64,000 nucleotides of DNA from positions 33,232,001 through 33,296,000 of the forward strand of contig OZ024746.1 of the NCBI GenBank assembly GCA_964016885.1, read 5' to 3'. The notes beneath the pieces were generated by a model. The model was not told the origin of the DNA. It did not search any database and saw nothing but the letters and a program-made list of their open reading frames with translations. Both the position numbers and the translations under genes were made by a program. The number at the start of each line of letters is the position of its first letter. Position 1 is the stretch's first letter. Source of the stretch: Eledone cirrhosa. Taxonomy: Eukaryota. Positions 2,991 to 64,000 of the stretch are shown piece by piece.

Positions 2991-3978
2991 GCACGCGCGC
3001 GCCTCATACGTAGTCGCTCATGTACATATATAGAAAGTATACACACATTAAGGCGTTCAGCCATATTGATACAGGGTATAAAAAACTTGTCGATAAGTAA
3101 GTACAAATATAAAATTGTAAGATTGGCTGCGTAAAAATAAAAAAATAAAAATAAAAATGAAAAATATATCTGGATTGGAAAACACAAAAGTAGTGTTTCC
3201 TAGCATGCAAGATGACATTCTCTTCAATATCGGAGATATTAGTAAACCCGCTAGCGAAATTTAAAGCTTTCGCTAAAAGGGTCTGAGTGATAGATGGGTA
3301 GAAATCTACAATGACAAATTGGGTGAATCTAGAACTATTTTTGTTTTTAATATTATTAAACCAATGTACTACGGAAGAGCTATTTATCCATTGGAGTAAT
3401 TTAGACTTACTTCTAATGTGTGTATTTAATTTATTTAAAATTTTTTTGCTGGCAAGACCAATATCAGTCTTAGCAGGGTTGATTAATCTACAATTAGGAC
3501 GATTAATAAAGTCGGGTTTATGATCTTTAAGGGTGATATACGCAGAACGTTTAGCAAGTTTTTCTGTCCTATTATCTATTTTTAAAGAAACAGCTAATTC
3601 TTTAGCTTCCTTATTTATATTATGGTACGTATTTATATTAGCTATTTGGTATTTAGAGGTGATATTATCTATTAATAGTTGGGCGTGTAAATTATTATTA
3701 ACTTCATATAGGTTTTTAGTTTTATCGGAGAAGATGAACTTATTATTAGAAGATTTGAAAGTTGAAATATCATTAGATAATTGAGATTGAAAAGGGTTAG
3801 AGTACTTACGAAAATTGATATTGTTGATTAGGTTAACTAGGTCTAATTCAAAGGCGGTCATATCTTTTACTCTTTGCGGGTATTTATGAGTTTTGATGTC
3901 AAAATATTCCGTAGAATCCGTGTTAAATTGTCCATCGAGAATCAAAGCTTTCCATCTCATTCTTTTAACAACCTTCTT
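1930..3978 (-). mobile_element. Penelope-like element (Naiad-like), internally deleted: N-terminal RT region plus 3' UTR with HHR
   Basis: ORF 3004-3960 has MRWKA, FELDL, SDKTKNLY, TLKDHKPDF, CRLINPAK, QFVIVDFYPSI. Homology stops near 3190 and is followed by an AT-rich 3' region with an HHR, then (TA)n. Confidence 0.85.
2032..2108 (-). ncRNA. Type I hammerhead ribozyme
   Basis: Minus strand: UUGCCUCGU-CUGACGA-aCGAAUGA...UCAUUCGg-GAAA-CC ucu GG-UA/AUAAGGUAA; predicted cleavage after GUA, between 2042 and 2041. Confidence 0.75.
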
Positions 3979-4683: not shown

Positions 4684-5495
4684 AAATGATGAATAAATAA
4701 TAATAAATAAGTTATAATGAAGATGATAAAAAGTAACTAAAATGTTTTTGTATGTATGCGAAGAAAAGTGAACATAATATGATTGATGAAAATAGTTGTG
4801 GTGTTGGTGGTTAAAATATAAAGATGTGATGGTATAAACATGAAAATACTAAATATATACATATATGTATTGGTTAAATTAATAAATTAATAAATTGGAA
4901 GTTATGTTAGAAGTGAAGAGAATACGATAGGATATAATGTAAGAGGTGAAATAGATTTAGGGAAAGAGAGTGACAGAGAGAAAAGTTAGGAGGTTATGAT
5001 GTTGATTCATTGATTAGTTGATTTATTGACAGTTAATAATAACAATAATGGGTTATTATAATAGACTCAGGTTGGATCGAATCAAGTTGGTTTGAAATTA
5101 GCGAATTTAGTAGCAGCTTTATGCCTACAGAAAATTGACCGCTCAATTTTGCTGTTAAGCAGCATTTTGTCATATTTTAAAATATGGAGCAACTCCATAT
5201 TGCAAATTACGCTGTAGGCTTTTGTCCCTGACAATTTCGACTAGCTAATCCAGTATTCTTGGTTTGTATCTTTAAGCTACAAGTTAATAATGAAAATTAA
5301 TAATTATAAACCTACTTTCAAAATCAAGGTGGTGTCGTTCATGGCTTTCCTAGAGCTATTAGTCATATTTAGGGTCAACTTGTCAATCTGCTGGCTTCTT
5401 TGGTAACAAACTTATTATTTCTATGCGTGATTAACAGTTGAATTAATTTAATTTTATTATTTTACCTGACAAATAATATATATATATATATTTAC

Positions 5496-10082
<4,587 letters not shown>

Positions 10083-14825: not shown

Positions 14826-15165
14826 GAAATAAAATAAAAATGGCGTAGACATTACAATACAATACAACAGAAGGGAACATAATAATAGTACCACTGATGA
14901 TGTTGCAGATGTGCCACGAAAGAATTTTGATAGACTATATATATATATTTATATCTGTATTTTTAACCGTTGGTACATCAATGATAAACGTTGATTGCCA
15001 AATAAATTAACTATGGAGATATCAGAATACAGAAGCGAAAACCAACCAAACAGTGAGTGTGTTCTGTTATTATTTCTAGCAATATTTTTACAACAATATG
15101 ACCCTCCCCAAGTATAACAATAATTGTTTTGACACACGATTTCATATCAAAAACAACCTTGAAGA
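14826..15165 (+). mobile_element. Solo pLTR of the Neptune/Nematis-like PLE with a degenerate HHR (14886-14932)
   Basis: Homologous to 27115-27365; CCA-CUGAUGA-uGUUGCA gaug UGCCAC-GAAA. Confidence 0.75.
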
Positions 15166-15438: not shown

Positions 15439-16102
15439 CTAGACACTGTACGGCTTAATTCGTGATGTTTGTTTACAAACACACCGAGCATTATAATACA
15501 TGTTCGGTGAATCCATACGTACATATATATGTGTGCATGTATGTATATATATATATGCATACTACTGTATGTCTGTATACATATATGTATGTACGTATAC
15601 ATACTTATATTTAAGTAACAGCCGTACTAAGAGTGAGAAATGAAATTTCGTTTCATTTTTTCCGTTTATCGTTTTCGGTACCCCGGCCGATTAACTCACT
15701 CGATATGCAAATTAGGCTGCTCAGCCGTTAATATGCATAAGGAAAGTATATACTTTCAGACGTTCAACCATCTGGCAGGAAGGTATACGTTGCTGACGAT
15801 AGCTAATAAGCTTGAAACTAGTACAGTGTTCCTTTGTCAGGGTTGAACAAATGAGCAACGATGGTTGCTAGACACTGTACGGCTTAATTCGGGATGTTTG
15901 TTTACAAACACACTGAGCATTATAATAAATGTTCGGTGAATCCATACGTACATATATATATATATATGTGTGCATGTATGTATATATATATATATACATA
16001 CTACTGTACGTCTGTATACATATATGTATGTACGTATACATACTTATATTTAAGTAACAGCCGTACTAAGAGTGAGAAATGAAATTTCGTTTCATTTCTT
16101 CC

Positions 16103-18436: not shown

Positions 18437-18855
18437 ATGATATTAATAAATGGAAACTATATTTATAAAACCATATTTATTTTATTATATAAATTTCAAA
18501 GGTTACCAACATTTTGGTACGCTTTCATCAGATAAAATACAAAATTTGTTTTCTAAATGATGACATACCCAAGAAACCAAACCTCATCGGTTCAGGTTCA
18601 GTTTGATTTCTTGGGTATGTCACCATTTATAAAACAAATTTTGTATTTTATCTGATGAGGGCGTACCAACATTTTGGTACCCATGAAATATATATAATAA
18701 AATAAATATGGTTTTATAAATATAGTTTACATTTATTAATATCATTGATATTATACTCCAGAAAACTTGTAGAATTCTTCGAATCTTCGAATCTTCGAAT
18801 CTGTTATAAATAAAAATTTATTTGTTGAATAACCAACAAATTAAATATCTTTTTG

Positions 18856-24184: not shown

Positions 24185-27100
24185 TTGCGAGGTTTTTGAA
24201 ATGAAATCGTGTGTCGAAACACATAATGTTATACTAGGGGAGGGTCATATTTGTGTAATAATATTGCCAGAATTAATAATAGAACACACTCACTTTTTCG
24301 TTGGTTTTCGCTTCTGTGTCTTTTATATCGTTGCATGTGTCTTTCCATTTCTGTTGGGTCGCACATGCGGGACACGCTCTTCATCACTCGTACCAAGTCT
24401 GCGGTCAGAATATTAAACTTAGCACTACTGAACATTGCTGAGTTTTTGAGTATCAGGTATTTGGAGGCCATGAGTTTAGCATAGTGTGAATGGAGAATGT
24501 TGGCTCTCTCGTCTATAGTGTAATCCAGAGTTCCGTGTCTAATACAGGTAGTCTATTGTTAGGGTGTTTGGATGGGAAGTCGATAGTTACAGTTATACTC
24601 TGGTGTATGAAATTAGCTATCTGCTGGATGCTTTCCATTGTACTATGTTCTAAATCAAACTTGTTAGTTCTCTCTTGTGGGGATGTCCTTATTACTATAT
24701 TGATGTCGTCTGCGTAACGAGAGTACATGATGAGGTCTATGGAGCTCTCATCAAGGAGATCTTTGAGTCTCCTTTCCCACCATACCATAAAAAGGTTGGC
24801 AACGTCACCAGCTCTGCTGACGCCAATGGCTGCTCCGTCATTTTGGGTGTAGCTCTTCTCGTTGACTTTGAATATGTGGCCCTTTAAGGTAGTTTTGATA
24901 CAAGCCCCTATTGCATGTGCGACCATTTTTCTTACCTGATCATTGTTTTGGGGGGTCCGTATAGCTTTGGTCCACCCAATGCACCTTCCCATGGGAGTCT
25001 TTTTTGCCATTGAGGTTATGGTGGGGGTCTACCTCCATGGGTCTACTGGGGCAGAAATGTCTAAGGTCATGGCTGTCTAGGTAGTCAGTATCATAGTTAA
25101 GTCTAAGTATTCTAAGTAGGAGGTCCAGTTCGTCTGTGTCGACGTCGCAGAACTCCACCTCACTCTCAATGATCATCTCCACACATTTTTCCACAGCAAA
25201 ATCAATGTTAATGGATGGGTACAGTGATACCACATCCATACTGCCTATTATGCAGTTGGATAGGTTTTTGTTTTTGTTGCACTCACTGACTCTGCTGAGG
25301 AGGTCCTCTGTACTGTCACATACATCTTGGGACATCTTGATTATGCGGCGTATAACCATTGAGAGGAGGTTGGAGATCCTGTAGTTGCTAGCTATATTTG
25401 CTCCGCATAGAGTTCTTGTTGGTGGTCCTGTTGTCGGGTTGTCGGGTCGTCGACTGTCTTGTGGTCTTTGTGGAGCCCATACAAGGGTGGTTGCCATTGT
25501 TAGACGCCTGGAAGTTGTTGGCAGTGCATCTGCTTGGCTTTAGGATGTCGGTCCACATCATCATGTGAGCGTTGAGGATTTTCTCTCTCCCATCATGTAT
25601 TTGCTGTGCAATTTCGCTCGAGTTGCTCATGTGGGGTTGCATAGCCTTGATGTACTTCGGCATGCTGTCTATTGACATCCTACCAGACTTATCCGTGGGT
25701 AGACATACTACCTCACCATCCCCTGTGCGATGCTTGAGGCTAACCAAGCCTTCTACAGGTTTCCTCCCAAGTTGTTGGACCTCAGTCTGCTCTGTCTCTT
25801 AGTATACCGGTCTACTATTTGTCTAATCTTATTTCTAGCTATGGTGAACTGTGCCTCTGTCTCGTCATCTATTTGTTGTGGTATACAAACCCTTTTATTA
25901 AAGGGTAACCTCGTAGGATAGATATTACCCATCTTATATGTTTTGTCAGCTGGATTGAAGAATAGTTTCTCTAAGGGGTTGTCATTATATCTATCGTCAT
26001 AGTTGTGTGTGTTGCTATTATTGTTATTATGGTGGTTGTTGTTGTTCGTATTATTAGCATTATTATTACTGTTATCATTGCTAGATGTATTGTTGCTGTG
26101 ATTGTTAGATGTATTGTTGTTGTTTTCTCCCCCGTTATTGTTGTTGTTACTGTTATTTCTACCATTGTGGTTGTTACTTTTATTATGTTTCTTGTTTTTG
26201 TTGTTGTGTCTATCATTAATGTTGCTATTTCTATTATTACCACTGTGGTTGTTGTTGTTGTTACTCGTATTATTTCCATTATTACCACTGTGGTCGCTGC
26301 TGTTGTGTCTGTCGTTAATGTTTCTATTATTATTATTATTGTGGTTGTTGTTTTTGTTCTGTCTATCGTTATTATTATTACCATTATTACTATTTCTCTC
26401 TCTCCTGCTATTGTTATTGTTATGACTGTTACTATTATAGCTGTTATTTCTATACTCAGAGTTATTGTTTATATTACTACTATCGTTATTATTGTTGTTG
26501 TTGTCGGTATAGTTGTTGTTGTTGTTTACTTTTGCATTCCAACGTATTTTTGTGAAACACTTTTCCAGCTCCGTTTTGCACTCGATAGGGTTAATCTTTT
26601 TGTAGATAGCAATTTTTGGTGGTAGCTGCAGAATTTGTTGCTCTTGTTCACTGATTAAAGTGTTCCCATAAATATTTACTGCGTGGTCATTGGTAAATTC
26701 TTCCGGTAGTTCTACATCAGTCATACGGATATTGTTGGGTCTTGCTGGGTATTTTTGTCAATATTCTAATTTTCTTTCTTCTACTTTTTCTTATTCATCC
26801 ATTCTAATTTCTTATTGAAATGCCTATTGCATTAGTTTCGGGCGTATTTCGTTTCACGTCGAATGACGCTCATGAGTTCATCTCTCTCGTTTGGAGTGGT
26901 GAGATTTCGAACTTACCGTTAATGCGTTTCTGTCTGTAAAGTTCGTTAACTTTTGTGTATGTTGTTCTTTTCATATTAACTGTTATTGTGTGTTTTAGTC
27001 GTTCAGCTTGTGTTTTGTTCAATAATAAATTATTTACTTGTTTTGATATGTTTGTTGTGTATACTTTGAAGGAAACACAGTGCTTTTTCTTAAAGCACTG

Positions 27101-31347: not shown

Positions 31348-33127
31348 GTATGTATATATATTTATACATACATATATATATATACGAATGTTTTTGTGTA
31401 GGAGGCGTCTGTGTGTATGTGCTTGAGTGTATATAAGGAACCATTTTTCTACCTCTCCTCCTTCTAATTGCTGGACTTATGCTAAATGTAAAGAAATATT
31501 ATTGGTGCATTGTTTATATATTTTCAATAGTCATAAATGTTCAAGTCTGTGTATTAGAAAAACTGAATACTTGGTGTAAAAATTCAACAGTTGTATCCTA
31601 AATACCAGTACTTTAACTGCGTCTTTGGTTTCTATTCTGATATTATTAACGCCTTCGTAATTACCCCCGTTGTTTTGTCTGTGTTTATATATAATTATAT
31701 TTCTATCAACTAACTAATTCTGTTATGCGTTGGTTCCCTGTAAAACATTCGTGGATACCAGACGTGCAAATGTCGTGCCTGTGCTTTCATTGTAAAATTT
31801 TGTCTTGAAAGTTACAACTTTATGTTTTATATATTAAATTGGTCAACTAAATTACGTTGTTTGTTTCGCTAGTTTGTGTGTTAGTGTAGATGAGGTAAAG
31901 TCTTCATTTTAATGGTATTGTAGTATCTTCATTCTATGAGTTTGTGGTTAGGATCATTATATGTTGATTTATTCCAATGCCGAACTTATCCAGAAATGTG
32001 TGATGATTTAAGTATTTTTCTGTGTTTGATCATTATTTACATATTCAGTTGAATGGCCTAATAGATAAATGAACTATATGTCAATGGTATCGGTTATTAA
32101 GCACGATATATCGAAATTCAAAGATTTAAGTATTTTGTTTACTGCATATTCATGACAATACCATAAACAAAAGGTGACAACAAAAAGCATACAGAATAGA
32201 AACCAGAGACAGAAGATTAATTATACACAAATCTATATGACTCTGCATGGGCATAAATGCAACTATTTGGAGAAATGTGGTTATTTCAACAAAACGTTAA
32301 TTAGCGAAATACTTCAAGCTATCCAATATTCATGATATGTCACGATGAAGAAGCAAACAAAATACATTCTACACCTACCTATGACTAATATGAGTGAATA
32401 TCGTAGCCAGATAGCTAAGTAAAGAATTATTGATTTTGTAAGAGAACAATCTACTTAGAAACAGTCTTTTTAAACAACTTGGACAAATTCTGTGGGAGGA
32501 GTATTGTACAAGTAATATGTGAACATCGCATCTCCACACGATTCACAACCACCAAGTGACAATTGAGGACAATAGATGCTATAGTCCACAATACACAAAT
32601 ATTGGTTATATAGTTTATTTTATTTTAAATTTCCTTATGCTGTTCATTTCAACAAGATTTTACGAGATCTTGGTTTCACGCTGTACATTGCATTTCAAGT
32701 TCAATTGTCGAATTACCAATCCCTCACAGTATTTTGGTAACACTGTGAGAACATTGGAAAAGGTGCTTTAATGTAAATGTTCGGAATCATCTCGGTTAAT
32801 GATAAACGTCTTTACTAGGATAACAACAATTATGAAAATATTCCGAAGTGATGACATAAATTTCAATTACAAAAAAAAAATTGTCTATGAAATACTCATA
32901 AACTACAAATCCTGTTGTATTATGAGTTCAATAAATGTCCTACCAATCTGGAGAATATATAGCATGAAACCAAATATTCGCTGAGGGTGGCCATTCAAAT
33001 CTTACCAAACAAAAAACTGTAATGGTATCATGATGCTCAATTGCCACAGAAACTGAATGTTCTAATTAAACATTTTTTATTATGTAGGGAATCTTTTTAT
33101 TAAAAAGATTTTGTTGTTGTGGCCGGT

Positions 33128-36100
33128 TACGTGACGTATTCTATTCTATAGCGATTAGGTCTTCAAAATGTTTATTATAAACATACAGAATATTTTCGAA
33201 TATTCTATGTCTATATTCACATATATATCGCTATTTCAGAGCATTTATTCCAATTTCTAATTTCTGCCGGACCGGCAACCGCTCTTTCAAACCAGTTCCT
33301 GTACACAGCTAAGTATTCTATAAGTCTCTAGCTGTGTCATTCTCGATAAAAGCACTGGATATGTAGTCCTGATGAGTTCTAACGAGAATGAAACGCGTAG
33401 ATTACTTCCCTTGCTTTTATCGAGAATCTAATTGTAATACGTGACGTATTCTATTCTATAGCGATTAGGTCTTCAAAATGTTTATTATAAACATACAGAA
33501 TATTTTCGAATATTCTATGTCTATATTCACATATATATCGCTATTTCAGAGCATTTATTCCAATTTCTAATTTCTGCCGGACCGACAACCGCTCTTTCAA
33601 ACCAGTTCCTGTACACAGCTAAGTATTCTATAAGTCTCTAGCTGTGTCATTCTCGATAAAAGCACTGGATATGTAGTCCTGATGAGTTCTAACGAGAATG
33701 AAACGCGTAGATTACTTCCCTTGCTTTTATCGAGAATCTAATTGTAATACGTGACGTATTCTATTCTATAGCGATTAGGTCTTCAAAATGTTTATTATAA
33801 ACATACAGAATATTTTCGAATATTCTATGTCTATATTCACATATATATCGCTATTTCAGAGCATTTATTCCAATTTCTAATTTCTGCCGGACCGGCAACC
33901 GCTCTTTCAAACCAGTTCCTGTACACAGCTAAGTATTCTATAAGTCTCTAGCTGTGTCATTCTCGATAAAAGCACTGGATATGTAGTCCTGATGAGTTCT
34001 AACGAGAATGAAACGCGTAGATTACTTCCCTTGCTTTTATCGAGAATCTAATTGTAATACGTGACGTATTCTATTCTATAGCGATTAGGTCTTCAAAATG
34101 TTTATTATAAACATACAGAATATTTTCGAATATTCTATGTCTATATTCACATATATATCGCTATTTCAGAGCATTTATTCCAATTTCTAATTTCTGCCGG
34201 ACCGGCAACCGCTCTTTCAAACCAGTTCCTGTACACAGCTAAGTATTCTATAAGTCTCTAGCTGTGTCATTCTCGATAAAAGCACTGGATATGTAGTCCT
34301 GATGAGTTCTAACGAGAATGAAACGCGTAGATTACTTCCCTTGCTTTTATCGAGAATCTAATTGTAATACGTGACGTATTCTATTCTATAGCGATTAGGT
34401 CTTCAAAATGTTTATTATAAACATACAGAATATTTTCGAATATTCTATGTCTATATTCACATATATATCGCTATTTCAGAGCATTTATTCCAATTTCTAA
34501 TTTCTGCCGGACCGGCAACCGCTCTTTCAAACCAGTTCCTGTACACAGCTAAGTATTCTATAAGTCTCTAGCTGTGTCATTCTCGATAAAAGCACTGGAT
34601 ATGTAGTCCTGATGAGTTCTAACGAGAATGAAACGCGTAGATTACTTCCCTTGCTTTTATCGAGAATCTAATTGTAATACGTGACGTATTCTATTCTATA
34701 GCGATTAGGTCTTCAAAATGTTTATTATAAACATACAGAATATTTTCGAATATTCTATGTCTATATTCACATATATATCGCTATTTCAGAGCATTTATTC
34801 CAATTTCTAATTTCTGCCGGACCGGCAACCGCTCTTTCAAACCAGTTCCTGTACACAGCTAAGTATTCTATAAGTCTCTAGCTGTGTCATTCTCGATAAA
34901 AGCACTGGATATGTAGTCCTGATGAGTTCTAACGAGAATGAAACGCGTAGATTACTTCCCTTGCTTTTATCGAGAATCTAATTGTAATACGTGACGTATT
35001 CTATTCTATAGCGATTAGGTCTTCAAAATGTTTATTATAAACATACAGAATATTTTCGAATATTCTATGTCTATATTCACATATATATCGCTATTTCAGA
35101 GCATTTATTCCAATTTCTAATTTCTGCCGGACCGGCAACCGCTCTTTCAAACCAGTTCCTGTACACAGCTAAGTATTCTATAAGTCTCTAGCTGTGTCAT
35201 TCTCGATAAAAGCACTGGATATGTAGTCCTGATGAGTTCTAACGAGAATGAAACGCGTAGATTACTTCCCTTGCTTTTATCGAGAATCTAATTGTAATAC
35301 GTGACGTATTCTATTCTATAGCGATTAGGTCTTCAAAATGTTTATTATAAACATACAGAATATTTTCGAATATTCTATGTCTATATTCACATATATATCG
35401 CTATTTCAGAGCATTTATTCCAATTTCTAATTTCTGCCGGACCGGCAACCGCTCTTTCAAACCAGTTCCTGTACACAGCTAAGTATTCTATAAGTCTCTA
35501 GCTGTGTCATTCTCGATAAAAGCACTGGATATGTAGTCCTGATGAGTTCTAACGAGAATGAAACGCGTAGATTACTTCCCTTGCTTTTATCGAGAATCTA
35601 ATTGTAATACGTGACGTATTCTATTCTATAGCGATTAGGTCTTCAAAATGTTTATTATAAACATACAGAATATTTTCGAATATTCTATGTCTATATTCAC
35701 ATATATATCGCTATTTCAGAGCATTTATTCCAATTTCTAATTTCTGCCGGACCGGCAACCGCTCTTTCAAACCAGTTCCTGTACACAGCTAAGTATTCTA
35801 TAAGTCTCTAGCTGTGTCATTCTCGATAAAAGCACTGGATATGTAGTCCTGATGAGTTCTAACGAGAATGAAACGCGTAGATTACTTCCCTTGCTTTTAT
35901 CGAGAATCTAATTGTAATACGTGACGTATTCTATTCTATAGCGATTAGGTCTTCAAAATGTTTATTATAAACATACAGAATATTTTCGAATATTCTATGT
36001 CTATATTCACATATATATCGCTATTTCAGAGCATTTATTCCAATTTCTAATTTCTGCCGGACCGGCAACCGCTCTTTCAAACCAGTTCCTGTACACAGCT

Positions 36101-36356
36101 AAGTATTCTATAAGTCTCTAGCTGTGTCATTCTCGATAAAAGCACTGGATATGTAGTCCTGATGAGTTCTAACGAGAATGAAACGCGTAGATTACTTCCC
36201 TTGCTTTTATCGAGAATCTAATTGTAATACGTGACGTATTCTATTCTATAGCGATTAGGTCTTCAAAATGTTTATTATAAACATACAGAATATTTTCGAA
36301 TATTCTATGTCTATATTCACATATATATCGCTATTTCAGAGCATTTATTCCAATTT
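33128..36356 (+). repeat. Tandem array of a 310-bp unit (10 full copies plus a partial), each with an HHR; non-LTR retrozyme-like
   Basis: GTGACGTATT at 33131, 33441, 33751, 34061, 34371, 34681, 34991, 35301, 35611, 35921 and 36231; only one substitution noticed (G>A at 33585). Confidence 0.98.
33339..33427 (+). ncRNA. Type I hammerhead ribozyme, first of 10 copies (repeats every 310 bp)
   Basis: GUAGUC-CUGAUGA-GUUCU aacg AGAAU-GAAAC gc GUA/GAUUAC; stem I extended by AUUCUCGAUAAAAGCA/UGCUUUUAUCGAGAAU; predicted cleavage after 33399, 33709, ... 36189. Confidence 0.92.
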
Positions 36357-36389
36357 ATAATTAATATATTTATTATAACAAATATTTTA

Positions 36390-36541
36390 AAAAGTGGCCG
36401 GTGTACGGTTTGAAGGAGTGACCGGTTTTGTAAAGAAAGATTATATTAATTTTAACACCATTTTGCCAGGACTTTTTAAAACAACCACTTAAGAGTGGTG
36501 GTCGGTTTTATGATGGACCGGTTTAGAGAGGTCTTACTGTA
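36390..36541. mobile_element. Tc1/pogo-like DNA transposon end
   Basis: Ends ...AGAGGTCTTACTG|TA (CAGT terminus plus TA target) with GGCCGG/GACCGG subrepeats; partner end not found. Confidence 0.45.
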
Positions 36542-36591
36542 TAGTATAGTATCTATCAATTGACAGCAAGTCGCTAAATACATAGATTAGC

Positions 36592-36659: not shown

Positions 36660-37390
36660 CGCCCAGGGTCACCCCGAGAACGTCGTCGCTCTTTCCCTCC
36701 ACTAGCCCTCTATAGAACGCCGAGGTGGATGTTCCACCGATACTAGTGCTGGTAGAAGGCGATGAGCGCTTGCAAACATTCCAGCTTCAAAGCGGTACCC
36801 CTCGGTCTTTTCCTGATCCAGGACTGCAGCTCCGTCAAGGAGACGAGCTGGGGAAAAGCGCGTCTGCCAAACGGCGACCACACATGTTCACCGTCAAGGA
36901 AGCACCAGAGATGTCGCAGCCACAGCGCATGTTTGCGCATCATCATCCACGGCATGCCTAGTCCTCCACGCAACACGTGTTGACAGCAAATGGATCGTGT
37001 GACCATGGGAGCACGTCTATTCCTTAAAAAGCGGAAGAAAAGGCGTTTCATTTTGGTCAGAGTTGGGCGGGGGCGAGGTACGACGGTCAGGCGGTAGCAG
37101 ATGACGGACGCAATGTACGCATTCGCCATCTCCGCCCGACCTTTCAGAGACAGCCTCCTCTCGGCCCATTTCTTGGTGAGAGAGACCACCCTGCTCGGCA
37201 CCTCGCTCCATTCTTTCTCCATCTGGAGGTCCGGACCGAGCAATTTAACCGGTCCGTCCGTCCAGCACTCCACGACGCTGCCGGACGTCATGGATTTGCC
37301 TCTCCAAGTGCCGAGTTGCAAGCCCACCAACTTTTTCTGGTTTATCTTTGCTCCTGCCACCGCTTCGTATTCCTTGTCACTACGGTGACA
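36660..37390 (-). mobile_element. L1/Tx1-clade LINE ORF2 fragment (post-RT region)
   Basis: YEAVAGAKINQKK, RLSLKGRAEMANAYIASVICYRLTVVP, FFRFL, GGLGMP in ORF 36743-37603. Confidence 0.8.
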
Positions 37391-38337
37391 TAAACGGCGT
37401 AAGCTGACACAGATCTCCCGCATCCCAGTTTGCGTGGGACCCCACTCATCGTCTCCAATTTGTGCAGTAACGGCTCGAGGGCTAGTCACGCACTGGGATC
37501 GATTTAATCGACTTTCCCCTCCCCCAAAATTGCTGGCCTTGTGCCTATATAAGAAACCATTATTATTATTATTATAGTTAATTGTGGAATGGTATACAAA
37601 CATTTGAGGTTAGCAACGATTTTCATAGATTGCTCAAATAATGCCAAAACCTCCTCCAAAATTGTTATTTGCTAGAACGTGCCAATCTCACTACATGAAA
37701 GCATCATGTACTATCTCTTAAAAAAATGGTTTTGTATCAGTAATATCATTCCAATTATAAATGGAATAATTGATATGTTTCATATATGTCATAGTAATTA
37801 TGTTAAATTGTTAAGTCAAATCCGAAACATCTCTTTTCGCATATAGATAAAAATAATTATAGTCATTTTGTATATTTTTTATAAATTAGAGGAAAGAAAA
37901 CATTATTGTCATTTCTGTCATATTAGATGATATAATGTTTGATAGATTTTAGCCGTATGATACATTTCCAGACAGTTTTATTTTGTATTTCTCTAAAACT
38001 GGTGTGTGTAAAATAAAAATAAAAATTATAATAATAATACCATTGTCAGAGCTTAAGAATTGAAAAAATGAGGAAATACGCATAATCATATACATAAGTA
38101 TATATACATACTTTTTTCGTTTTTTTTCTTTACTCTACTCGTTGGAATGTGGCCATGCTGAGATAGATACGTGAAGAGATTGATCGTTTAATAATGTGTA
38201 TTAATAAAGAATATGAGAGTAATTATACATACACAATAACAGCAACTTTTGTCCAGTTTTTGAGTAATCACTATCCGATAGGCGAATATCTTTCACATTC
38301 CATTACATAATTATTGTTGTTATTAAATATATATTTA

Positions 38338-45495: not shown

Positions 45496-45540
<45 letters not shown>

Positions 45541-45600
45541 TTTAGGACTTGTAAAAACCCACCCACCAACCCACTATTAGATGCATTTGAGCAGGACCTT

Positions 45601-47679
45601 ATGAACTTAATCCTTAAAATTAAATTCAAAGGACGCAACACCAACAGCAAATTACAGAAAGATATAAAAAAACTACTGGACGACCTTAAAAACACCAAAG
45701 GAATTGTAGTAAAAGCGGACAAAACATCAAACCTGTACACTATGGATTGCACTACATACAACAACTTCATTCGAAAAGAATTACATAAAAAATATAGAAA
45801 AACGAGTGAAGTAACCCTTAAGCACATCAATGATGAGGCATGCGAAATAGTGAAAAATCTCGGAATCGAAGATAGGACAGGACCACTCTTACCGGCGGTA
45901 CCCACCTTCAATCTTAAGGACCACAAGGTAAACTTTGATAATGACCCTAAAATTAGATTAATCTGCCCCTCTAAATCAGATATAGGTAAAATAAGCAAAT
46001 ATATCTTAGATAGAATCATCCCCCAAATTAAGGCTAAGGTTAACATTAAACTCTGGGGGAAGACCCAAGAAGCAATAAGATGGTTTAATAGCATTAGCAA
46101 TAAGAATAAATCTAAGTTTATCCAGTTTGATATCGATGAATATTACTCATCGATATCACCTGAAACTTTAAATAGAGCCATTAAGTTTGCTAAGGATAAC
46201 TCTGACCTTACAAACGATGAAATTAAGATTATATTAGAAGCTAGGAAAACTATAGTCAAATTTGAGAACAGTTATTGGGTACGTAAAGATAGACCCTCTA
46301 ACTTTGACATAACAATGGGCTCTAACGATTCAGCGGAAATAACTGATATTGTGGGGTTATTTATCGCCTTTAGACTCCAGGAAAAATTCAGCAATCTCCA
46401 CGGCGGAATATACCGCGACGATGTTCTCCTCCTAGCTAAAAACCTTAATAACCAAAAACTAGAAAAACTACGCAAAGATATAAGAAAACTACTACTCGAA
46501 ATAGGACTAACTATAACATATGAATACAACCTTAAAGTAGTTAACTTCCTGGATGTCACACTCAATTTAAACTCTGGTTTGATTAAACCGTTTCATAAAT
46601 TGAATGAAAATCTCAAATACGTAAATGTTGGGTCTAACCACCCCATCTCTATAATTAAATCTATCCCTAAAAATATTTCCCTTAGAATCTCGGGTCTATC
46701 TTCTAACATACAAGTATTTAAGGAACACGCCGAGTACTACGATAACGCCCTTAGTAAAGCAGGCTACCTCAACAAAATAGAGTACATAGATGGGAACAAT
46801 CAAAACACCCAAAATAAATCCCACATAGGTAGATATAATAACACAACACCAAACCACACTTACTACCATAGTATGCACACCAGTAAACCAACAAACAAAA
46901 CTAATAGAAAGCGATGCAAAGAGTACTTATGGTATAACCCCGAATACAATAGCTCCATTAGTACAAATTTACCAGTACTCTTCTTTAAAATAATTAAATG
47001 ACATTTTCCCACATCACACAAATACCACAAAATCCTAAACCCTACCACTATAAGACTGTCATACTCTACAGCGTTAAACCTTGAACAACACATAAAAAAG
47101 ATCAATACTAGAAGGTTAAACGAAAACACTAAGAACTTAAGTACAAAGAACACAAAAAAAACAGTAGACAATACACTACAGAACATAAATAAACCACACC
47201 TAAGTTCGTCCGCAATACTACTCCAGAGAAAACCCAACGTACACAACTGTAACTGCACCTATCCTGACAACTGCCCCCTCGGCAATAACTGCCTGGAAAA
47301 AAATATTATTTATAAGTGTACCATTAAATCCGGAGGCAACGAGTGGTATTACGTGGGATCAACGGCAACATCGTTTAAATCTCGATTGTATAGGCATTCT
47401 TACTCAATAAAACACCAGAGCCAAAGAAATGTAACAACTTTAGCAGAAAAAGCTTGGACGCTCAGGGATAGCGACCAAAAGTTTACCCTAAAATGGGAAA
47501 AATTAGCTAAAACCCAAAGCTTTTCCAGGAGCCAAAATTTCTGCAAATTGTGTAATCTTGAGATTTATTACATAATCACACACAAGAAGAAACTGCTGAA
47601 TAACAGAATTGAACGAACATTATTCTGCCGTCACAGAACTAAAACCCTTTTTTCCCACTACAAGCCGAATATTACATAA
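45601..47679 (+). pseudogene. PLE RT-GIY-YIG polyprotein with a single in-frame TGA at 46999-47001
   Basis: [88 protein letters not shown]; ORFs 45601 and 47353 are in the same frame. Confidence 0.9.
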
Positions 47680-48004
47680 AAGAGGGACATCCCCCAACTA
47701 TATAAACCTTAATCTAGTTAAAAAAATATAAAAACAATCTCTTCTCAACATATATTAATAACCTTAAATTACCATACTAATAATGAAAAGATATGCTGAT
47801 GAGAATAGGTACAAATATGCGATAATGAATGTGTCTAAAAACGTCCATAAGTATGTATATATATGTGAAAATGTATATAAATAAGTAAATATATATATAT
47901 GTTTGATGTGTATAGTTAGATGTAAGTGTATTCATGTATTAAAGTGCTTATATATATATATATATGTATATATGTGTATATGTATGTGTATGTATATATG
48001 TATG

Positions 48005-48039
<35 letters not shown>

Positions 48040-48631
48040 GTATATGTATGTGTATATATATATATATGTATGTATATATGTGTATATGGATGTGTAAGTA
48101 TGTGTATGTGTGTACACATGGACTAGAGTATGTATGTATATATGTGTGTGTCTATACGTGTGTATATAAAGATAAGTTGAGTATGAAAATGTATACACAT
48201 GAGCGCGTATGTATGTACATGAATACATGTGTGTATATATATGCGTATGCATGTGTATATATATGTAAGTATGAATATGTGAATTGTGAGTATATGTATT
48301 TTGTAGAGGTGTGCAAATATATTTGTGTGTGGATGCGTGGGTGAAAGGATACGTACACTTGAAAGAAAAATTTAAGTCTGAATGTTAATTAAGTGCAAAC
48401 ACAAAACCAACCACGCATATCTTTACTATCTCTAATCCTTCTATAGATTTAGAAAAATAACCAATAATATATTCTATAAAAAATGTCAAAACAACAGATG
48501 GGAATCTAATTACTCACTGCCACCAAGAATTCTCACTGCTATCGAAAAACCACTCCTTCAACTATTCTTCTAACAACTTCACCCCTCCCTCCTAATATTC
48601 TCTATAAAAACTAAATAGGTCCTCAGTAATA

Positions 48632-48748
48632 TTATTCTGATGAAATGACAGTAAATAATAACATTGAAATATTGAATGTCTGCATAACTAAAAGTTTGTA
48701 GATAGCTGTTTTAGGTTATGTAACTGTTATAGAAACACGTGTCAATAA
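48632..48748 (+). ncRNA. Type I hammerhead ribozyme with multibranched stem II
   Basis: UUAUU-CUGAUGA-aAUGACAGU[two hairpins]ACUGUUAUa-GAAAC-ACGU-GUC/AAUAA; predicted cleavage after 48743. Confidence 0.7.
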
Positions 48749-48782
48749 ATTCCTTTCAACTAAACTGTATCCATTCAAATCT

Positions 48783-48849
<67 letters not shown>

Positions 48850-62839: not shown

Positions 62840-64000
62840 TGAATACTATTCCTCTATTTCACCCGAAACCCTGCATAAGGCCCTCTCTTTCGTTAAGACT
62901 AACTCGGACCTCACAAACGAGGAAATTAATATTATACTTGAAGCTAGACGCACAGTAGTGCACTTTGAAAATAGTTATTGGGTCCGCAGGGATAGACCCT
63001 CGGAATTCGACATTACGATGGGTTCTAATGATTCGGCGGAGGTCACGGATTTGGTTGGAATCTATATAGCCCATAGACTCCAGAGCGAATTTACGGACCT
63101 CCACAGCGGAATATACCGCGACGATACACTTCTATTATTCAAGAATATGAACAAACAAAACCTAGAAAGGCGACGTAAAAACATTAGGAAACTTTTCTTA
63201 GAACTAGGGCTTAATATTACCTTTGAACACAATCTTAAGGTGGTCAACTTCTTGGATGTTACCTTCAACCTTAATAACGGTAATATAGAGCCATTTCACA
63301 AACTTAATGAAAATCTTAAGTACGTTAATGTAAAATCGAACCATCCTCATTCCATTATTAAATCTATCCCTAAAAATATATCCATAAGGATCTCCCGACT
63401 GTCGTCTAATTTGCAGACCTTCAACGAGCATGCTGAATATTATAATGACGCACTTAGAAAAGCTGGTTACTGCGAGAAAATTGAATATCTAGACGATAAC
63501 CACATAAGTACTATGAATAAAACACATCTAAGTCGAACTAGTATTGCACCACACACACACATCAATAGGCATACTAACAGGTGCAAACCAGCAAATAGAG
63601 TCAGACGTAGAGAGTACATATGGTATAACCCCGTGTACAATTCTTCTATTAGCACTAAGATTATCTCACAATTCTATACACTAATCAATAAACACTTTAG
63701 AACTTCACATAAATACTATAAAATCTTTAACTCGCGCACCATTAGACTCTCATACTCCACTGCACCTAACATAGAACAACTAATTAGAAAACTCAACTCA
63801 GCAATACTGAATAAGTACATCCCTAATGACTCAGCGCACCAGCATAGCAACATGCAACGCACTAACACGCAACCACAACCCCACCAAACTATCCAGGATT
63901 CTACTGCAAAACATAAAAATAGTTGTACCTGCACCAAACCAGGTACGTGCCCACTGAATAACCAGTGCCTAGCACGCAATATTGTCTACCGGTGTACAAT
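62838..64000 (+). mobile_element. 5'-truncated, frameshifted Penelope-like element (Naiad-like) running off the window end
   Basis: Manual translation: [76 protein letters not shown]; close paralogue of the 45.6-kb copy. Confidence 0.9.

What the first reader, a model, noticed from the sequence alone, without database searches (positions are those of the whole stretch)
33128..36356. 10.4 x 310-bp array of hammerhead-ribozyme units: candidate cephalopod retrozyme / circular-RNA locus
Seen: ten virtually identical 310-bp units plus a partial, with no ORF. Each has a complete type I HHR: stem I GUAGUC/GAUUAC, CUGAUGA, stem II GUUCU/AGAAU, GAAAC-gc-GUA. Stem I is extended through an internal loop by a perfect 16-bp helix. 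Established: non-LTR retrozymes in other metazoans are tandem repeats of a few hundred nt with type I HHRs. They are processed into monomeric circular RNAs and are thought to be mobilised by Penelope-like elements. Inference: a read-through transcript would self-cleave every 310 nt (after 33399, 33709, ... 36189) and release up to nine 310-nt monomers able to circularise. I do not recognise this family and cannot confirm novelty without a search.
Basis: partly seen in the sequence, partly recalled or inferred. Interest (0 to 1): 0.92.

Follow-up and report, generated by a model that had tools for sequence, protein, structure and literature searches.

The report
Ribozyme RNA circle spread by Penelope
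This is one of well over a thousand genomic copies of a small self-cutting RNA parasite (a retrozyme), and the shape of those copies suggests that a Penelope-type retrotransposon enzyme copies a single RNA circle round and round into both ends of a cut in TA-rich DNA.

Summary
Confirmed: 10.4 copies of a 310-bp unit (one substitution among ten units), each with a canonical type I hammerhead; covariation across sister families, including C3-G8 to U3-A8, supports a selected ribozyme fold. Helix III is a 1-bp stem with a palindromic loop, so cleavage is probably dimer-dependent. It is a non-LTR retrozyme, a known kind. New is the genome-wide footprint: at least 13,304 ribozyme copies; insertions are mostly two head-to-head arms with variable inner 5' ends and two fixed outer 3' ends 26 nt apart (unit positions 139 and about 165) running into (TA)n; 53 of 53 paired ends are one short plus one long; both arms share one haplotype; arms read through the cleavage site. 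An active autonomous Hydra-clade Penelope element in the same genome inserts the same way. Best reading: Penelope enzymes in trans prime both target strands on one RNA circle and reverse-transcribe it as a rolling circle. The window array is an atypical one-armed copy with a 9-nt target deletion. Not shown: cleavage, expression, circles, the partner element. An A-to-G (editing-like) bias failed its pre-set replication test.

The parts
33128..36354 (+). Retrozyme array, 10.4 x 310 bp; one arm only; starts at unit position 39 and ends at position 165 (positions counted from the cleavage site)
33363..33405 (+). First of ten type I hammerheads (repeat every 310 bp to 36153-36195): 6-bp stem I, core, 4-bp stem II with G.U at its base, 6-nt loop II, palindromic helix III; predicted cut after 33399+310k
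33339..33427 (+). Extended stem I of the first unit: 3x1 internal loop, 3 bp, 2x2 loop and a perfect 16-bp helix (33339-33354 with 33412-33427)
36321..36328 (+). Unit positions 132-139, an (AT)4 run: the family's short 3' end (inferred first priming site); read through in this copy
36329..36354 (+). 26-nt 'tail' (unit positions 140-165) ending at the family's long 3' end (inferred second priming site); the 3' junction of this insertion
32967..33127 (+). Left part of the dispersed host repeat into which the array inserted
36355..36560 (+). Right part of the host repeat; empty copies show an AT-rich target, 9 nt lost at the insertion, no target duplication

Best explanation
A non-autonomous non-LTR retrozyme mobilised in trans by an endonuclease-bearing Penelope-like element (PLE). 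Inferred cycle: an array is transcribed; neighbouring hammerheads pair through their palindromic helix III and cut out 310-nt monomers; a host ligase closes them; the circle, having one hammerhead only, is stable. A PLE protein cuts both strands of (TA)n or other AT-rich DNA and primes each strand on the same circle, one at position 139 and one at about 165, and copies round the circle until the two cDNAs stop at random places and are joined head to head. Shown here: the ribozyme anatomy and its covariation, the dispersed family, the two-armed, two-ended, clonal insertions, and the same architecture in an autonomous PLE. Inferred: transcription, cleavage, ligation, the circular template, the identity of the PLE. 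The window array is a copy in which only the long-end arm was completed or kept.
For: Fold: 11 of 16 named pairs change on both sides over 15 sequences of four families, 0 of 500 shuffles reach the covariation score, slid controls 31-55% paired against 94% (related sequences can beat the shuffles); C3-G8 is U3-A8 in sister subfamily A'. Over 157 arrays no array-fixed change hits the core except free position 7. Spread: 6636+6668 exact hammerhead matches, control 0; 1398 long-end and 1760 short-end junctions with (TA)n, controls 0. Architecture: 25 of 36 loci picked by similarity show a head-to-head centre and 16 of the 19 with both outer ends visible have one short and one long end; 17 of 20 loci picked by position; 66 of 78 resolvable among 100 more; 53 of 53 outward end pairs on C1 are short plus long. 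Circle: arm consensus identical in 8 of 8 two-armed loci, 6 fixed haplotypes in 11 arrays; arms of up to about 27 copies; 2 of 146 5' ends lie within 5 nt of the cut site, about 5 expected by chance. Positive control: an active Hydra-clade PLE (30 copies 100% identical over 487 aa at the top score, open frames of 785 aa) has one short and one long end in 6 of 6 informative pairs, into (TA)n. Literature: inverted copy, tail and (TA)n bias of PLEs (PMC8557442); two internal RT start sites and extension of both strands in vitro (PMC11167929).
Against: No cleavage or RNA data. The pair at the base of stem II is not Watson-Crick in 12 of 15 aligned rows plus one G.U (most arrays have U.U), and stem II has pair probability only about 0.55. 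8 of 9 predicted Xenopus retrozyme dimers did not cleave (bioRxiv 10.64898/2026.07.22.740005). In the anole PLE, hammerhead cleavage was dispensable and unprocessed RNA was the main template in vitro. No PLE with a terminal repeat homologous to the unit was found in the few families examined. The window locus itself is one-armed and not in (TA)n. 47 of 100 short and 20 of 73 long ends had no pattern-matching partner. One array beside an assembly gap is a haplotype mosaic (L040), and some older arrays (L050, L057, L058) share variants among a few units.
Confidence: 0.72

Rival explanations
1. PLE-mediated, twin-primed insertion as above, but from long linear read-through transcripts of homogeneous donor arrays; the hammerhead and any circles are side products or act at another stage.
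For: PLE hammerhead cleavage is dispensable in vitro (PMC11167929); donors are themselves homogeneous, so daughters would be too; the base of stem II is weak; L040 is a mosaic.
Against: New variants appear fixed in all units and both arms at once, in nested haplotypes, which needs a one-monomer bottleneck; only 2 partly shared variants in 11 position-picked arrays, both in one 26-unit array; the catalytic core is conserved.
Confidence: 0.17
2. A PLE terminal-repeat remnant inserted as one or two copies and then expanded locally as satellite DNA by unequal crossover (the local-amplification scenario discussed in bioRxiv 10.64898/2026.07.22.740005).
For: Older arrays show variants shared by units 3, 4 or 7 places apart (L058), so some local turnover happens; that paper finds homology between retrozymes and PLE repeats in Xenopus.
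Against: Well over a thousand young dispersed insertions with fixed ends; both inverted arms are multimeric and identical; the window array sits at a sharp insertion point in a repeat whose other copies are empty.
Confidence: 0.06
3. Mobilised by a LINE or by a DNA rolling-circle mechanism rather than a PLE.
For: LINE twin priming can also give 5' inversions (recalled); L1/Tx1-like fragments lie nearby (label recalled); no homologous PLE partner found.
Against: No poly(A) or target duplication; two fixed internal ends, one per arm; the same pattern in an autonomous PLE of this genome.
Confidence: 0.04
4. The near-perfect array is an assembly artefact.
For: Its exact copy number is not bridged by any public contig laid; a few loci touch gaps.
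Against: Private single-unit variants, locus-specific haplotypes and clean junctions with an empty-site allele; contigs of run X1 show loose (TA)n ends at unit positions 139 and 170 (X1 may be the source sample).
Confidence: 0.01

Closest known systems
Metazoan non-LTR retrozymes (coral, mussel, axolotl; Cervera and de la Pena 2020, PMC7229834)
   Same: Tandem units of a few hundred bp, low GC, one canonical type I hammerhead per unit, self-paired circle with the hammerhead free to fold, thousands of copies, PLEs in the same genome. Helix III is like axolotl HHR_Amex1 (one pair plus palindromic tetraloop); the U.U base of stem II in most arrays is like HHR_Amex2.
   Different: Unrelated sequence (not compared base by base; supplement unreadable). 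The parts read describe direct tandems with larger target duplications when present; here two inverted arms, two fixed ends, (TA)n targets, and a deletion at the one site with an empty allele. Expression and cleavage are shown there, not here.
Vertebrate retrozymes as PLE derivatives (Li, Clavereau, Pollet, bioRxiv 10.64898/2026.07.22.740005)
   Same: Same class and same proposed partner class.
   Different: Their evidence is co-occurrence and homology with pseudo-LTRs; 'tail' occurs 0 times and 'inverted' once (a reference title) in that text. Here the evidence is the insertion footprint, and no homologous pseudo-LTR was found.
Endonuclease-bearing Penelope-like elements (Hydra, Neptune, Naiad, Poseidon; PMC8557442, PMC11167929)
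   Same: Inverted 5'-truncated copy, a tail at one end only, (TA)n or AT-rich targets, two internal RT start sites.
   Different: No ORF; canonical rather than minimal hammerhead; arms are multimers of a 310-nt unit; tail 26 nt (30-40 reported; about 112 in the Hydra family here).
Non-autonomous Chlamys elements such as MRC1 (PMC8557442)
   Same: Non-autonomous PLE passengers with multicopy head-to-tail insertions.
   Different: Those resemble their autonomous partner at the 3' end, and most Chlamys lack canonical hammerheads.

Membership tests
non-LTR retrozyme | Tandem repeat of about 150-450 bp with a canonical type I hammerhead in each unit | tested here: met
non-LTR retrozyme | Low GC, no coding capacity | tested here: met
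   GC 34.8%, longest ATG frame 30 aa
non-LTR retrozyme | Stable self-paired monomer with the hammerhead free to fold | tested here: met
   z -3.94; circular fold keeps stems I and II; stem I probability about 0.99, stem II about 0.55
non-LTR retrozyme | Dispersed multi-locus family | tested here: met
non-LTR retrozyme | No LTR, primer-binding site or polypurine tract | tested here: inconclusive
   No LTR-flanked unique core in any locus mapped; primer-binding site and polypurine tract were not searched for
non-LTR retrozyme | Self-cleavage in vitro | not testable with these tools
   needs transcription of dimers
non-LTR retrozyme | Accumulates as circular RNA | not testable with these tools
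   needs RNA data
non-LTR retrozyme | Autonomous PLEs in the same genome | tested here: met
canonical type I hammerhead | Core nucleotides, 6-bp helix I, 4-bp helix II, short palindromic helix III (PMC4209133) | tested here: met
canonical type I hammerhead | G10.1-C11.1 pair | tested here: not met
   G.U in the window, U.U in most arrays, A-U in 15; a U.U variant is described in axolotl
Rfam hammerhead families | Score above the gathering threshold | tested here: not met
   0 hits; HH9 18.6 of 52 bits
PLE-type insertion | Inverted 5'-truncated copy adjoining the 5' end | tested here: met
   family-wide; absent at the window locus
PLE-type insertion | Tail at one end only (two RT start sites) | tested here: met
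   26 nt; 53 of 53 pairs
PLE-type insertion | (TA)n or AT-rich target | tested here: met
autonomous PLE | ORF with RT and GIY-YIG endonuclease | tested here: not met
   no ORF
derivative of a PLE pseudo-LTR | Homology to the terminal repeat of an autonomous PLE | tested here: inconclusive
   none significant in the few families examined; most PLE families of this genome were not examined

The most novel reading that the evidence does not exclude
Each insertion is a clonal DNA record of one RNA circle, copied from both cut target strands by a dimeric Penelope enzyme at two fixed sites, and changes made to the RNA itself (A-to-I editing by ADAR in its paired stems) are thereby written into the germline, so that the family evolves partly at the RNA level like a viroid. 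The twin-primed-circle half is the best explanation above; the editing half rests on a pooled excess of array-fixed A-to-G over T-to-C changes (17 against 8, p 0.026), none with a 5' G and 14 of 17 in stems, which did not pass its pre-set replication (9 against 6, p 0.30).
Probability: 0.2. Interest if true: 0.82.

Novelty: new member of a known kind. Interest (0 to 1): 0.58.

Why it matters
How animal retrozymes move has been proposed (PLE enzymes, circular templates) but, in the papers read, supported only by co-occurrence and homology. This young family carries the footprint itself in over a thousand insertions and adds a rule, one short and one long end per insertion, that ties the two RT start sites seen in vitro for a Penelope protein to the two target strands and explains the PLE inverted-repeat-and-tail structure. 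A 310-nt non-coding RNA with two predicted start sites, next to an intact active PLE in the same genome, makes both questions directly testable, and points to a small RNA cargo for PLE-based insertion.

Tried and rejected
Expression: no RNA holder listed among 6 runs from 6 studies that hold 83-87% of the words; of 4 laid, X2-X4 each give one 340-nt contig (310+30), which a tandem DNA and a circle would both give, and their kind is not on record. Partner search: Hydra family of 45.5-48.8 kb (best local alignment matched by 46 of 300 shuffles), Neptune-like family of 24.5-26.8 kb, partial Hydra copies beside loci, and six downstream stretches of long GIY-YIG frames out of 150 listed showed no significant homology to the unit; higher scores for families B and D fell in TA-rich sequence. 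The 80%-identical piece in L053 proved to be a sister retrozyme, not a PLE. Editing: discovery 10 A>G against 2 T>C of 24 rare fixed variants in 57 arrays, L040 left out; replication 9 against 6 of 31, p 0.30, some being misassigned older-subfamily markers; selection for G.U wobble is an equal rival. The variant tally skips some copies (best-match regex) and was not used for conservation claims. Promoter: no convincing element; two T4 runs argue against Pol III read-through (inference); the bacterial promoter scan is irrelevant and at chance; no tRNA in the window. Exact hammerhead pattern: 0 in metagenome and viral contigs. No earlier notes on this genome. The supplement of PMC7229834 could not be read and PMC5785218 is not held; either may list cephalopod repeats or inverted arrays.

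Full report
Observation. The array is real: period 310, 10.4 copies at 33128-36362 by TRF, with one substitution among ten full units. Each unit has a type I hammerhead, cut predicted after 33399+310k, a perfect 16-bp extension of stem I and no ATG frame over 30 aa. The monomer folds better than all 100 shuffles. Rfam gives nothing at gathering score and only a weak HH9 match, so ribozyme identity had to be tested by comparison.

The ribozyme. I found sister families in the genome: A' (315-316 bp, 65% identical), B (467 bp) and D (466 bp). In an alignment of 15 hammerhead regions, 94% of cells pair, 11 of 16 pairs change on both sides and slid controls pair 31-55% (kinship inflates such tests). 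The tertiary pair C3-G8 is U3-A8 in A', a natural variant reported in PMC3088659 and PMC4209133 (passages). Helix III is palindromic in all four families. PMC4209133 states that such helices impede monomer cleavage but allow dimers. Among 157 arrays, array-fixed changes in the hammerhead fall in stem I, position 7, the base of stem II and loop II, not elsewhere in the core (unit positions 1-3 not scored). Against activity: the base pair of stem II is G.U here and U.U in most arrays, stem II is marginal in RNAfold, and 8 of 9 Xenopus dimers failed to cleave.

The family. An exact degenerate hammerhead pattern occurs 13,304 times, control 0 (a lower bound, about 4 Mb). Of 36 loci picked by similarity, 25 show two arms joined head to head with inner 5' ends at variable places; outer 3' ends fall at unit position 139 or about 165 and run into (TA)n; 16 of 19 with both ends visible have one of each, and 3 have another end. 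Genome-wide there are 1398 long-end and 1760 short-end junctions, controls 0. On the first 166 Mb of C1, among 73 long and 100 short ends, all 53 outward pairs within 20 kb are short plus long; 47 short and 20 long are unpaired. Of 20 loci picked by position on C1 (a few listed places were not fetched), 17 are two-armed, 2 one-armed, 1 cut by a gap. Of 100 more, picked for having a (TA)n end, 66 of 78 resolvable are two-armed; 3' ends are 89 at 139, 45 at 164-172 and 4 elsewhere; 146 5' ends are spread round the unit with 2 near the cut site. Families A', B and D have the same two-armed, two-ended form, with tails of about 26, 70 and 59 nt.

The window locus. It is one-armed, from position 39 to the long end. 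It lies in a dispersed repeat; in 8 of 11 other copies examined the site is intact and shows an AT-rich target, 9 nt lost and no duplication.

Clonality. Variants are typically fixed in all units and both arms of an array and differ between arrays; arm consensus is identical in 8 of 8 position-picked loci, with 6 haplotypes in 11 arrays and 2 partly shared variants, both in the longest array. Exceptions: L040 beside a gap, and some older arrays. Read-through of the cleavage site for up to about 27 copies from internal start points is what a circular monomer gives; a cleaved linear monomer cannot give it, and a linear multimer does not explain array-wide fixation of new variants (inference).

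The mover. PMC8557442 (passages and section 11) describes inverted 5'-truncated copies, a tail at one end and (TA)n targets for PLEs, and defines the Hydra clade by RWK, DKT and CxCX5C motifs. PMC11167929 (parts 1-2 of 4) shows a PLE protein cutting and extending both strands of AT-rich DNA and starting at two internal RNA sites that bound the tail; it also finds hammerhead cleavage dispensable. The window holds a Hydra-clade copy whose family has these motifs, intact 785-aa frames and many identical copies. In 6 of 7 two-armed copies fetched both ends could be read, and all 6 have one short and one long end, about 112 nt apart, in (TA)n. It shares no significant sequence with the unit, nor did the other PLE families seen, so it is a control for the mechanism, not a proven partner.

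A weaker lead. Array-fixed rare changes were 10 A>G against 2 T>C in the discovery set, while single-unit changes ran 4 against 16. The pre-set replication gave 9 against 6 (p 0.30); A>G stayed commoner among fixed than single-unit changes (9 of 31 against 11 of 135, p 0.004), but some sites were misassigned and single-unit calls include alignment noise. RNA editing written back into DNA is possible; selection for G.U pairs explains much of it equally well.

Host. Molluscan haemocyanin genes are present; the best single-unit PDB matches are, from recall, squid and octopus proteins, and seven units per gene is from recall the octopod pattern. High ADAR activity in cephalopods is also recalled, not tested.

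Novelty. The class is published: PMC7229834 (passages and parts 2-4 of 6; supplement unreadable), bioRxiv 10.64898/2026.07.22.740005 (parts 1-3 of 5 and passages), PMC7761336 (passages). Hammerhead counts exist for giant squid (PMC6962438, passage). Searches (listings and abstract starts) found no cephalopod retrozyme and no account of inverted, tailed retrozyme insertions; Repbase and Dfam could not be searched, and subscription papers and supplements may hold either. Verdict: a new member of a known kind whose insertions give unusually direct sequence evidence for Penelope-driven, twin-primed, rolling-circle copying; interest 0.58.

Noticed in passing
window 45538-48788 (+): 5'-truncated copy of a very active Hydra-clade Penelope-like family (intact 785-aa frames elsewhere; two 3' ends about 112 nt apart; only a degenerate hammerhead-like motif at 48638); this copy has a stop at 47001.
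   Followed up: yes
window 15508-16097 (+), hammerhead at 15793: Diverged copy of sister retrozyme family D (466-bp unit). Families B and D carry an octamer-type motif downstream of their long end that family A lacks; snRNA-type promoters are recalled for newt satellite 2.
   Followed up: partly
L115:1640-1732 (-) and other A' copies (L114-L138): Older sister subfamily A' with a U3-A8 hammerhead core, a mismatch at the base of stem II and a longer palindromic helix III; further subfamilies about 63% identical in L108 and L149.
   Followed up: partly
window 18470-18750: Head-to-head pair of minimal hammerheads (18531 -, 18652 +) with a TA palindrome in helix III, next to a (TA)n run: a short inverted PLE-type insertion of another family.
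   Followed up: no
window 60202 (-) and 60286 (+): Inverted pair of hammerhead-like motifs matching the terminal repeat of the GIY-YIG family in L298 and L299.
   Followed up: partly
window 24513-26757 (-); motifs at 14894, 22071, 27129: Broken Neptune-like PLE of an older, abundant family (about 91% protein identity between copies) and copies of its minimal hammerhead.
   Followed up: partly
window 3004-3978 (-) and 5477-7612 (+): Two further Hydra-type PLE copies, broken; the second has a GIY-YIG hit.
   Followed up: partly
window 36743-37609 (-) and 62859-63488 (-): Fragments that look like L1/Tx1-type LINE ORF2 and ORF1 (label recalled; no Pfam hit for the first).
   Followed up: no
window 32967-33127 and 36355-36560: Host repeat ends like a DNA-transposon terminus before a TA (label recalled); no matching inverted end was found in the copies fetched.
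   Followed up: partly
unit position 186 (window 33585): The single difference in the window array, G to A at a CpG, recurs as a single-unit change 12 times over the arrays examined: a mutation hot spot.
   Followed up: partly
L040 (G000:C2:315860800-315870250): Array made of four known haplotypes in series beside an assembly gap, with the same central junction as L043: mis-join or template switching between circles.
   Followed up: no
runs X2-X4: Runs filed under three other organism codes each hold one 340-nt contig of the unit and little or nothing else of this stretch; kind not on record.
   Followed up: no
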